Shown: one piece after another, positions 54,982 through 56,082 of the stretch
Layout of the letters: each line of letters starts with the position of its first letter
Numbering within the stretch: the stretch's first letter is position 1
Source: Candidatus Heimdallarchaeota archaeon
GTDB lineage: Archaea; Asgardarchaeota; Heimdallarchaeia; Hodarchaeales; Hodarchaeaceae
DNA: 64,000 nucleotides
Direction: 5' to 3'
Assembly (NCBI GenBank): GCA_020353515.1
Contig: CP070695.1
Coordinates: 2,706,155-2,770,154, forward strand
Made by a program: the position numbers and the translations under genes
The notes under the pieces: generated by a model
The model's database searches: none
What the model was told of the DNA's origin: nothing
Seen by the model: the letters and a program-made list of their open reading frames with translations, nothing else

Positions 54982-55299
54982 ATGAGTTCTGACCTTGAAG
55001 GATGGTTTAACTTCCCTAAACCCGTAAAATTGCTGGATATCTCTCTTATTGGGTATATTGTCATTTTAGTAGTTGCAACAATACTTTACTTGGCTATTCT
55101 CGACCATACCGTACAGAATTTAATGCCTATATTTCTTACAGCCATATTAGCCTTGATTACATGGAACTTTCGGACACAGTTATTAAAAACCTCAGATCCT
55201 AACATGCATAAACGGTACTTTCGTGAATGGATTGTTATTTGTATTTGCATCATTGTGTTTATTGGAGTAATTCTCATTGTTTATCCAGTAACATATTAA
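54982..55299 (+). CDS. OST2/DAD1-like 3-TM protein
   Basis: 105 aa, three TM helices; P..VKLLD, FRTQ and RYFREW align by eye with DAD1 P.RLKLLD, LRIQ and RAFADF. Confidence 0.6.
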   Translation: MSSDLEGWFNFPKPVKLLDISLIGYIVILVVATILYLAILDHTVQNLMPIFLTAILALITWNFRTQLLKTSDPNMHKRYFREWIVICICIIVFIGVILIVYPVTY

Positions 55300-55346: not shown

Positions 55347-55418
55347 TCACTAGTGATGATGTTATCCCCGGATGAGTTGTGTTACAACTATGAACGTAAG
55401 AAGAGCCGTCTGAAGTGA
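55347..55418 (+). ncRNA. Double-guide box C/D sRNA targeting 23S rRNA PTC
   Basis: Terminal stem TCACT/AGTGA; C box GTGATGA 55353-59; guide TGTTATCCCCGG; D' ATGA; hairpin; guide GAAGAGCCG; D box CTGA 55410-13; guides are complementary to conserved 23S CCGGGGAUAACA and CGGCUCUUC. Confidence 0.9.
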
Positions 55419-55455: not shown

Positions 55456-55746
55456 ATGAAAAAGGACTTAATGGACATTTTAGCCTGTCCGATCTGTAAA
55501 AATATCGAATTAAAATTATTTGTTTTTAAAGAAGATGAGAGAGAAATTGAATCTGGTCTTATTTTTTGTTCCAAGTGTAATCGATATTATCCAATCAAGG
55601 GAACAATACCAGTCATGCTGCCAGACGATCTGAGAAAAGAAGATGAAGACTTGAAATTTCTTTCAGCTAATCAAGAGAAAATTCCGCCAAAAATTCTAAC
55701 AGAAGGAAAGCCTTTTCCTTTGTCTAACCGAAAAAAAGGAGTATAA
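55456..55746 (+). CDS. trm112: Trm112-family methyltransferase activator
   Basis: LMDILACPICK...EIESGLIFCSKCNRYYPI..TIPVMLPD. Confidence 0.92.
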   Translation: MKKDLMDILACPICKNIELKLFVFKEDEREIESGLIFCSKCNRYYPIKGTIPVMLPDDLRKEDEDLKFLSANQEKIPPKILTEGKPFPLSNRKKGV

Positions 55747-55791: not shown

Positions 55792-55864
55792 TAGCCCCGC
55801 TCAGATTCGAACTGAGGTCACTAGGGCCAAAGCCTAGAATGATGGTCCGCTACACTACGGGGCT
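55792..55864 (-). tRNA. tRNA-Gln(TTG)
   Basis: AGCCCCG/CGGGGCT acceptor with archaeal A1-U72, CTAGG-CT TTG GC-CCTAG, CTCAG-TTCGAAT-CTGAG. Confidence 0.95.
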
Positions 55865-56082
55865 GAAAGCGCTGCGACAACACACATCACCCTGATTGCA
55901 GATTCAGGGCAACAAACTTCACATGCACGACATTCAAAACATGAATCTGGATTTAAGACTTTTATCTTTTCTCTTTTTTCTGCAATCAGGATTTCTGCTG
56001 GACAACTACGGACACATTTCAAACAGCGAATGCAGAGGTCGTGATCGATGAGTATATGAGGAGCTATTCTTTCGCACCTCAT
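55855..56082 (-). CDS. 2[4Fe-4S] ferredoxin
   Basis: CIRCLKCVRSCP and CFECRACEVCCP; start overlaps the ribophorin I stop (ATGA); stop lies inside tRNA-Gln. Confidence 0.88.
   Translation of the reverse strand: MRCERIAPHILIDHDLCIRCLKCVRSCPAEILIAEKREKIKVLNPDSCFECRACEVCCPESAIRVMCVVAALSAP

What the first reader, a model, noticed from the sequence alone, without database searches (positions are those of the whole stretch)
55347..55418. Unannotated box C/D sRNA guiding two peptidyl-transferase-centre methylations at eukaryote-conserved sites
Seen: complete C/D'/C'-like/D architecture with a 5-bp terminal stem and an internal AGTTGT/ACAACT hairpin. The D' guide TGTTATCCCCGG is the 12/12 complement of conserved LSU CCGGGGAUAACA, and the D guide GAAGAGCCG complements CGGCUCUUC. 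The D+5 rule gives Gm2446 and Cm2510 (E. coli numbering). From recall, to be verified: these correspond to yeast Gm2815 (snR38/SNORD1) and human Cm4456 (SNORD49). Inference: one Asgard sRNA covers two sites that eukaryotes assign to separate snoRNAs, a possible ancestral double guide. It sits directly upstream of trm112 and may be co-transcribed with it.
Basis: partly seen in the sequence, partly recalled or inferred. Interest (0 to 1): 0.75.

Follow-up and report, generated by a model that had tools for sequence, protein, structure and literature searches.

The report
Asgard dual-guide box C/D sRNA
This is a real ~72-nt box C/D guide RNA of a Hodarchaeales (Asgard) archaeon that most likely directs sugar methylation of two nucleotides in the ribosome's catalytic centre. 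It is an ordinary member of a known RNA class, and the same target pair is already published for Methanopyrus.

Summary
Window 55347-55418 (+) carries a 5-bp terminal stem, C box GTGATGA, a 12-nt guide, D' ATGA, a 5-bp internal hairpin, C' ATGAACG, a 13-nt spacer and D box CTGA.

The RNA is kept in 18 of 21 same-genus genomes. The guide cores GTTATCCCCG and GAAGAGCCGT never change, while the neighbouring proteins fall to 47-57% identity.

The window's own assembly has no rRNA. The genus-type 23S pairs with both guides, placing E. coli G2446 and C2510 at the fifth position upstream of D' and D. The D' duplex has one G·U, so it is not 12/12 Watson-Crick. Guide and target co-vary in two other Asgard lineages.

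The "ancestral Asgard double guide" idea is weak. Double guides are the archaeal norm. Methanopyrus kandleri sR7 (Dennis 2015 supplement) has the same two targets in the same order.

Linkage to trm112 is tight (9-52 nt), so co-transcription is likely, but it is confined to this genus.

This scan already found orthologues in other genomes and reached the same verdict. Expression and methylation remain untested.

The parts
55347..55351 (+). 5' half of the terminal stem (TCACT)
   Evidence: Pairs with AGTGA at 55414-18. 81% of cells are paired across 18 homologues, with G·U variants.
55353..55359 (+). C box GTGATGA
   Evidence: Matches RUGAUGA. TGATGA is kept in 17 of 18 homologues.
55360..55371 (+). 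D' guide TGTTATCCCCGG. The invariant core is 55361-55370. C55367 is the +5 base, opposite LSU G2446.
   Evidence: Core GTTATCCCCG is invariant in 18 sequences while both flanking bases vary. It is complementary to genus 23S CCGGGGGUAACA with one G·U. Guide and target co-vary in G310 and G137.
55372..55375 (+). D' box ATGA
   Evidence: Homologues have ATGA, TTGA, AGGA, CAGA or CTGA. The GA is invariant.
55376..55388 (+). Internal hairpin GTTGT-GTT-ACAAC. It closes the C'/D' motif as a full K-turn rather than a K-loop.
   Evidence: Four pairs are invariant. The fifth is U-A in 13 sequences, G-C in 1, U·G in 1 and unpaired in 3. Stems also occur here in the Helarchaeota and Zod_Metabat.1055 homologues.
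55390..55396 (+). C' box ATGAACG (degenerate)
   Evidence: TGA is invariant in all homologues. It lies 3 nt after the hairpin, as K-turn geometry requires (inference).
55397..55409 (+). D-guide spacer TAAGAAGAGCCGT. The pairing core is 55400-55408. G55405 is the +5 base, opposite LSU C2510.
   Evidence: GAAGAGCCGT is invariant. It is complementary to CGGCUCUUC in the genus 23S of G005 and G008.
55410..55413 (+). D box CTGA
   Evidence: Invariant in all homologues.
55414..55418 (+). 3' half of the terminal stem (AGTGA)
55456..55746 (+). trm112 gene, 42 nt downstream of the D box; probably co-transcribed with the sRNA
   Evidence: Pfam PF03966, 39.3 bits against a cut-off of 22. The order DAD1-like gene, sRNA, trm112 is kept across the genus. 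The spacing is 9-52 nt.
54982..55299 (+). Upstream neighbour: a 105-aa membrane ORF.
   Evidence: Its synteny with the sRNA is kept in the genus. It has no Pfam hit.

Best explanation
The region encodes a box C/D small RNA of about 72 nt. Its C/D and C'/D' motifs fold into K-turns. These would bind L7Ae and then a Nop5-fibrillarin dimer.

The two single-stranded guides pair with two strands of the large-subunit rRNA that lie 64 nt apart at the peptidyl-transferase centre. Fibrillarin would then 2'-O-methylate the nucleotide opposite the fifth guide base upstream of each box. The D' guide selects G2446 and the D guide selects C2510 (E. coli numbering).

Because both guides sit on one RNP, the RNA may also hold the two rRNA strands together during 50S assembly.

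The gene lies in the leader of trm112 and is probably cut out of a shared transcript.

Shown here: the motifs, their conservation, the complementarity, guide-target covariation, and presence of the protein genes. Inferred: RNP assembly, methylation, the chaperone role and co-transcription.
For: - Complete box architecture with 12- and 13-nt spacers.
- The RNA is found in 18 of 21 same-genus genomes with covariance model R1. The guide cores and boxes are invariant, while loops, flanks and the outermost guide bases vary.
- Neighbouring Trm112 falls to 57% identity and the DAD1-like protein to 47%.
- The genus-type 23S is G005:C44. It is 84-92% identical to 23S pieces from three other genus genomes.
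- It carries both targets in the right register. The D' duplex is 11 Watson-Crick pairs plus one G·U. The D duplex is 9 Watson-Crick pairs. G008 also has CGGCUCUUC.
- Covariation in G310: its 23S reads CCAGGGGUAAC and its guide reads GTTACCCCTG, with U opposite A2444 and C opposite G2448.
- Covariation in G137: its 23S reads CUGGGGGUAAC and its guide reads GTTACCCCCG.
- The own genome encodes adjacent nop5 and fibrillarin genes and two L7Ae-family genes.
- In a crude own-genome scan, 78 box-plus-stem candidates were found. Only this RNA (its D' guide counted only when the G·U is allowed) and one other have guides of 9 nt or more to rRNA on both sides.
- Below-threshold Rfam hits include SNORD49 and snoR38, the eukaryotic guides for the same two sites.
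- M. kandleri sR7 has the same target pair.
Against: - There are no expression or methylation data.
- The organism's own 23S is not in the assembly.
- The D duplex is only 9 bp.
- The D' duplex needs a G·U two base pairs from the target nucleotide if this organism shares A2448G.
- The C' and D' boxes are degenerate.
- No Rfam family reaches its gathering score.
- Stem covariation is weak because the sequences are close relatives.
- The predicted fold is no more stable than shuffled sequence, z = -0.48. This is expected for this RNA class.
Confidence: 0.82

Rival explanations
1. Only the D' guide (G2446) directs methylation. The 9-bp D guide is too short to be catalytically productive and serves mainly as a second tether or rRNA-folding chaperone contact.
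For: The D duplex is exactly 9 bp and is flanked by mismatches on both sides. Reviews describe a chaperone role for double guides that bridge sites within 100 nt (PMC7994747).
Against: GAAGAGCCGT is as invariant as the D' core. The same register, with C2510 at +5, is kept in the Helarchaeota, G280 and G310 homologues and in M. kandleri sR7. Guides for the neighbouring G2509 exist in Sulfolobus, Nanoarchaeum and Methanopyrus.
Confidence: 0.12
2. The element is chiefly a cis-acting K-turn leader of the trm112 mRNA. L7Ae binding would control trm112 translation, and rRNA guiding would be secondary or absent.
For: The trm112 start codon lies 9-52 nt after the D box in all genus members. In two genomes it lies only 4 nt after the terminal stem. 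A paper listed reports that L7Ae binds K-turns in archaeal mRNA leaders (PMC5539422, abstract only).
Against: A leader K-turn would not need two invariant 9-10-nt stretches complementary to the rRNA. Homologues outside the genus have unrelated neighbours (CutA1, CorA, a QueC-like gene) yet keep both guides. Guide and target co-vary.
Confidence: 0.05
3. Chance assembly of short motifs in an AT-rich intergenic region, with no gene present.
For: The boxes are short. Rfam finds nothing above threshold. The fold is not unusually stable.
Against: Conservation pattern across 18 genomes. The joint chance of both rRNA complements is about 1e-4. The reversed control pattern gave 0 hits in 400 genomes. 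The same RNA occurs in four Asgard families.
Confidence: 0.01

Closest known systems
Methanopyrus kandleri C/D box sRNA sR7 (MKAsR7; supplement of Dennis et al. 2015, PMC4644070)
   Same: - It is a double guide with the same two targets in the same order.
- Its D' guide GGTAATCCCCGG, followed by CCGA, puts G2446 at +5.
- Its D guide CGGAGAGCCGG, followed by CGGA, puts C2510 at +5.
- This was read against the M. kandleri 23S in the same supplement.
   Different: - Its boxes are the GC-rich Methanopyrus variants (AUGACGA, CCGA, CGGA).
- It has one internal mismatch in the D' duplex and a 9-nt D'-C' spacer.
- The organism is a hyperthermophilic euryarchaeon.
- No sequence similarity exists beyond what the shared targets impose, so common descent cannot be told from convergence.
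Other archaeal guides for the same or adjacent nucleotides: NeqsR03 and IHOsR414 (G2446); Sac-sR7, NeqsR04 and MKAsR45 (G2509); TtesR140 (by my box reading, G2445)
   Same: They carry the same antisense cores (TTATCCCCG, AGAGCC) next to D or D' boxes. Nanoarchaeum 23S also has G at 2448, opposite a guide U.
   Different: They are paired with other partner guides. Some are shifted by one nucleotide. They are not Asgard.
Eukaryotic snR38 / SNORD1 / plant snoR38 (Gm2815 yeast, Gm4392 human) and U49 / SNORD49 (Cm4456 human, Cm2880 Arabidopsis)
   Same: They target the homologous nucleotides (tables in PMC8583080 and PMC11542601). The offsets to Um2552 are identical, at 106 and 42 nt. Weak Rfam alignments rest on the guide-plus-box segments.
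   Different: - The eukaryotic sites are listed under two separate snoRNA families. That eukaryotic snoRNAs are mostly single guides is my own knowledge.
- Rfam scores are far below the gathering scores: 16.8 against 37 and 16.4 against 45.
- In SNORD49 the C4456 guide sits before D', not before D (alignment).
- Any similarity is explained by the shared target, so homology is not shown.
Generic archaeal box C/D sRNAs (Omer 2000; Gaspin 2000; review PMC7994747)
   Same: - Boxes and K-turns are present.
- Guide spacers are about 12 nt and the +5 rule applies.
- The two guides target sites less than 100 nt apart in a 23S domain V hotspot.
- The gene sits in variable genomic context, often inside the untranslated region of a protein-coding gene.
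   Different: Here the D'-C' linker is a 13-14-nt hairpin that gives a full internal K-turn, instead of the usual 3-9-nt K-loop. The host is a mesophile-type, 36% GC Asgard genome in which my crude scan found very few candidate sRNAs.

Membership tests
Archaeal box C/D sRNA (2'-O-methylation guide) | C box RUGAUGA near the 5' end and D box CUGA near the 3' end, brought together by a short terminal stem | tested here: met
   GTGATGA at 55353-59, CTGA at 55410-13, and the 5-bp stem TCACT/AGTGA. All are conserved in homologues.
Archaeal box C/D sRNA (2'-O-methylation guide) | Internal D' and C' boxes able to form a second K-turn or K-loop | tested here: met
   D' is NNGA with an invariant GA. C' is NUGANNN with an invariant UGA. 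The hairpin GTTGT/ACAAC abuts the D' GA and lies 3 nt before the C' GA, which is K-turn geometry read from the sequence. Both boxes are degenerate outside the GA.
Archaeal box C/D sRNA (2'-O-methylation guide) | Guide spacers of about 12 nt between C and D' and between C' and D | tested here: met
   The spacers are 12 and 13 nt. The same lengths hold across the genus.
Archaeal box C/D sRNA (2'-O-methylation guide) | Antisense element of about 9 nt or more to rRNA or tRNA, ending next to D or D' | tested here: met
   Against same-genus 23S the D' duplex has 12 positions (11 Watson-Crick plus 1 G·U) and the D duplex is 9 bp at positions 2-10. The own 23S is not available.
Archaeal box C/D sRNA (2'-O-methylation guide) | Genome encodes L7Ae, Nop5 and fibrillarin | tested here: met
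   PF01798 at 224 bits and PF01269 at 264 bits lie adjacent at C1:1335511-1337020. PF01248 scores 93 and 53 bits.
Archaeal box C/D sRNA (2'-O-methylation guide) | Expressed as a stable small RNA, with the target nucleotides 2'-O-methylated | not testable with these tools
   No RNA-seq or modification data are available for this uncultured lineage.
Rfam SNORD49 (RF00277) and snoR38 (RF00213) | Score at or above the family's gathering threshold | tested here: not met
   16.8 bits against 37, and 16.4 bits against 45. It is not filed as a member.
Orthologue of M. kandleri sR7 (same double guide by descent) | Same target pair and guide order, plus similarity beyond what the guides and boxes impose, or a continuous phylogenetic distribution | tested here: inconclusive
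   Same pair and same order. However, an exact-pattern scan of 185,579 species genomes found the Asgard-type RNA only in Asgard genomes. That pattern required a TGATGA C box and a CTGA D box, which the published Methanopyrus RNA does not have, so such variants could not be found. Nothing outside the guides is alignable.

The most novel reading that the evidence does not exclude
The G2446 + C2510 double guide may be one ancient archaeal sRNA lineage, shared by Methanopyrus and several Asgard classes. Under this reading the archaeal ancestor of eukaryotes passed it on, and it later split into the single-guide snR38/SNORD1 and U49/SNORD49 families. That would make these two ribosomal methylations and their guides traceable across the archaeon-to-eukaryote transition.
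Probability: 0.1. Interest if true: 0.6.

Novelty: new member of a known kind. Interest (0 to 1): 0.28.

Why it matters
I found no paper in the searched library that describes Asgard box C/D sRNAs. This RNA therefore adds a well-supported example from Hodarchaeales.

It shows that two catalytic-centre methylation sites conserved in eukaryotes are probably also guided in Asgards.

Guide-target covariation at 23S positions 2444 and 2448 gives comparative evidence of function without any culture.

It does not change the picture of how these guides work or evolve. Double guides aimed at this hotspot, including this exact pair, were already known.

Tried and rejected
- **Own 23S.** Rfam LSU and conserved-motif searches found no rRNA in the 4.94-Mb scaffolded assembly, so direct pairing was not possible.
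- **First same-genus 23S (G001:C57).** It lacked the D target (it reads GTCGTCTC). It is only 71-75% identical to the genus-type 23S, so I rejected it as mis-binned. G006:C310 is bacterial.
- **More genus domain V sequences.** Only G005 (complete) and G008 (contig ends at position 2450) were recovered.
- **Rfam.** Nothing at gathering level. E-value mode gave only weak generic snoRNA hits.
- **Covariance model R1 across the class.** It found nothing outside the genus. Degenerate patterns were needed to find the Helarchaeota, G280 and G310 homologues.
- **Stem covariation.** It is too weak to be evidence.
- **Thermodynamic fold.** Uninformative, z = -0.48.
- **trm112 linkage as a conserved functional coupling.** Rejected beyond the genus.
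- **Literature on Asgard C/D sRNAs.** Nothing found in the searchable library. Absence from that library does not prove there is no publication.

Full report
**What is there**

Window 55347-55418 (+) reads as follows:
- TCACT, the 5' half of the terminal stem
- A
- GTGATGA, the C box
- TGTTATCCCCGG, the D' guide
- ATGA, the D' box
- GTTGT-GTT-ACAAC, a hairpin
- T
- ATGAACG, the C' box
- TAAGAAGAGCCGT, the D spacer
- CTGA, the D box
- AGTGA, the 3' half of the terminal stem

The D' GA is followed directly by the hairpin. The C' GA lies three bases after the hairpin. A kink-turn needs exactly this layout, so the internal motif is a full K-turn rather than the usual archaeal K-loop. This is read from the sequence and is an inference.

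The RNA lies between a 105-aa membrane ORF (54982-55299) and trm112 (55456-55746; Pfam PF03966, 39 bits). A tRNA-Gln converges at 55792-55864.

**Organism and data limits**

The window is part of a 4.94-Mb scaffolded metagenome-assembled genome with 36% GC and no rRNA genes. Record titles of the homologous loci name Candidatus Hodarchaeota, Ca. Hodarchaeum mangrovi and Heimdallarchaeota B3.

Pairing therefore had to be tested on 23S from relatives.

G005:C44 is the genus-type 23S. It is 84-92% identical to 23S pieces from G001, G016 and G008. G001:C57, at 71-75% identity, is mis-binned. G006:C310 is bacterial.

**Conservation**

BLAST and a covariance model find the RNA in 18 of 21 same-genus genomes.

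In the 18-sequence alignment these elements never change:
- the boxes
- the hairpin core GTTG/CAAC
- the guide cores GTTATCCCCG and GAAGAGCCGT

The hairpin loop, the flanks and the outermost guide bases vary freely. Over the same genomes the flanking Trm112 falls to 57% identity and the upstream protein to 47%.

Stem covariation is weak, as expected among close relatives. The fold is no more stable than shuffled sequence, which is normal for RNAs whose guides must stay single-stranded.

**Targets**

On a real E. coli 23S, CCGGGGATAACA is 2442-2453 and CGGCTC is 2507-2512.

The genus 23S reads CCGGGGGUAACA and CGGCUCUUC. G008 confirms the second sequence.

The D' guide therefore forms 11 Watson-Crick pairs plus one G·U, at position 2448. 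The D guide forms 9 Watson-Crick pairs at positions 2-10 upstream of the box.

The fifth base upstream of D' (C55367) faces G2446. The fifth base upstream of D (G55405) faces C2510.

About 0.005 and 0.02 chance matches are expected in 5.7 kb of rRNA. In a crude own-genome scan, 78 candidates had boxes and a stem. Only this RNA (its D' guide counted only when the G·U is allowed) and one other have both guides complementary to rRNA over 9 nt or more.

The genome encodes adjacent nop5 and fibrillarin genes and two L7Ae-family genes.

**Wider distribution and covariation**

Pattern scans covered 400 Asgard genomes and then 185,579 species genomes.

The same double guide turned up only in Asgards:
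- the Hodarchaeum-like genus
- Helarchaeota Hel_GB_A
- Promethearchaeota Zod_Metabat.1055
- an unnamed lineage, G310

Elsewhere in the phylum each guide occurs with a different partner:
- In f19 the 2446 guide is paired with another D guide.
- In f7 and f24 the 2510 guide sits in the D' position.

This fits the "varied pairing of guides" described for archaea (PMC7994747).

Guide and target co-vary:
- G310 23S has CCAGGGGUAAC and its guide is GTTACCCCTG. U faces A2444 and C faces G2448.
- G137 23S has CUGGGGGUAAC and its guide is GTTACCCCCG.

This is the strongest comparative evidence here that the D' guide is used on this site.

**Comparison with what is known**

Published tables give these equivalences (PMC8583080, PMC11542601):
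- Arabidopsis Gm2816 = human Gm4392 = yeast Gm2815, guided by snoR38.
- Arabidopsis Cm2880 = human Cm4456, guided by U49, with no yeast site.

The distances to the Um2552 equivalent (106 and 42 nt) are the same in E. coli, yeast, human and Arabidopsis.

The idea that Asgards show a special ancestral double guide does not hold, for four reasons:
- Most archaeal sRNAs are double guides whose targets lie within 100 nt of each other.
- The supplement of Dennis et al. 2015 lists M. kandleri sR7. Its D' guide puts G2446 at +5 and its D guide puts C2510 at +5. I read both against the M. kandleri 23S in the same file.
- Nanoarchaeum sR03 and Ignicoccus sR414 also aim at G2446. Sulfolobus sR7, Nanoarchaeum sR04 and Methanopyrus sR45 aim at G2509.
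- In SNORD49 the equivalent guide sits before D', not before D.

Common descent of the archaeal and eukaryotic guides is possible. It cannot be told apart from repeated recruitment of the same conserved rRNA sequence.

**Link to trm112**

Across the genus the trm112 start codon lies 9-52 nt after the D box. In two genomes it lies only 4 nt after the terminal stem. That is too close for a separate promoter, and a Shine-Dalgarno-like motif follows the sRNA in most genomes.

Co-transcription is therefore likely, with A/T-rich TATA-like sequences upstream of the sRNA. This is an inference.

Outside the genus the neighbours are unrelated: CutA1, peptidase M20, a QueC-like gene, CorA and hemerythrin. 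The linkage is therefore local and probably incidental. A side role for the K-turn in trm112 translation is not excluded.

**Verdict**

- The RNA is a new member of a known kind.
- Orthologues were already flagged and followed up elsewhere in this scan, with the same conclusion.
- Expression and methylation remain to be shown.

Noticed in passing
G000:C1 about 4008771-4008840 (-), outside the window: A second clear double-guide C/D sRNA. It has ATGATGA, the guide AACCTGACAAGG, ATGA, then ATGAAAT, the guide CTTATAGTTACT and CTGA. Both guides have 10-nt complements 32 nt apart in the genus 23S 5' half. My crude scan found few other convincing candidates.
   Followed up: partly
L003:1483-1569 (+) and L003:933-1019 (-) (genome G017): G017 has two copies of the sRNA. 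The copy next to trm112 has a damaged C box (GGCATTGATG). An intact inverted copy lies about 560 nt upstream, where the DAD1-like gene is missing. This suggests a local rearrangement with gene replacement.
   Followed up: no
L040:1535-1620 (G005:C44, genus-type 23S): The 23S has G at the normally conserved A2448. The same is seen in G137, G310, the g5 genus of f4, and Nanoarchaeum. It also has an insert of about 45 nt with its own hairpin in the loop of the helix between the two sRNA targets (helix 89 by my recall of the 23S map). This could be a mini-intron or an expansion segment.
   Followed up: no
L039 (G010:C12), L041 (G001:C45), L042 (G008:C8): The last ~370 nt of the 23S lies alone on large contigs. 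No upstream 23S sequence is found within 8 kb or more. This suggests a very large intron near E. coli position 2590-2600, or a split rRNA gene, in this genus.
   Followed up: no
L033, L035, L036 (Heimdallarchaeia family f3 23S): The 23S is interrupted just 5' of AACAGAG, at E. coli 2449/2450, inside the D' target sequence. By my recall this is a classic LSU intron insertion site. No homologue of the sRNA was found in these genomes.
   Followed up: no
window 55792-55864 (-) and 55855-56082 (-): The stop codon of the 75-aa ferredoxin ORF lies within the first ~10 nt of tRNA-Gln on the same strand. Another reader also noted this.
   Followed up: no
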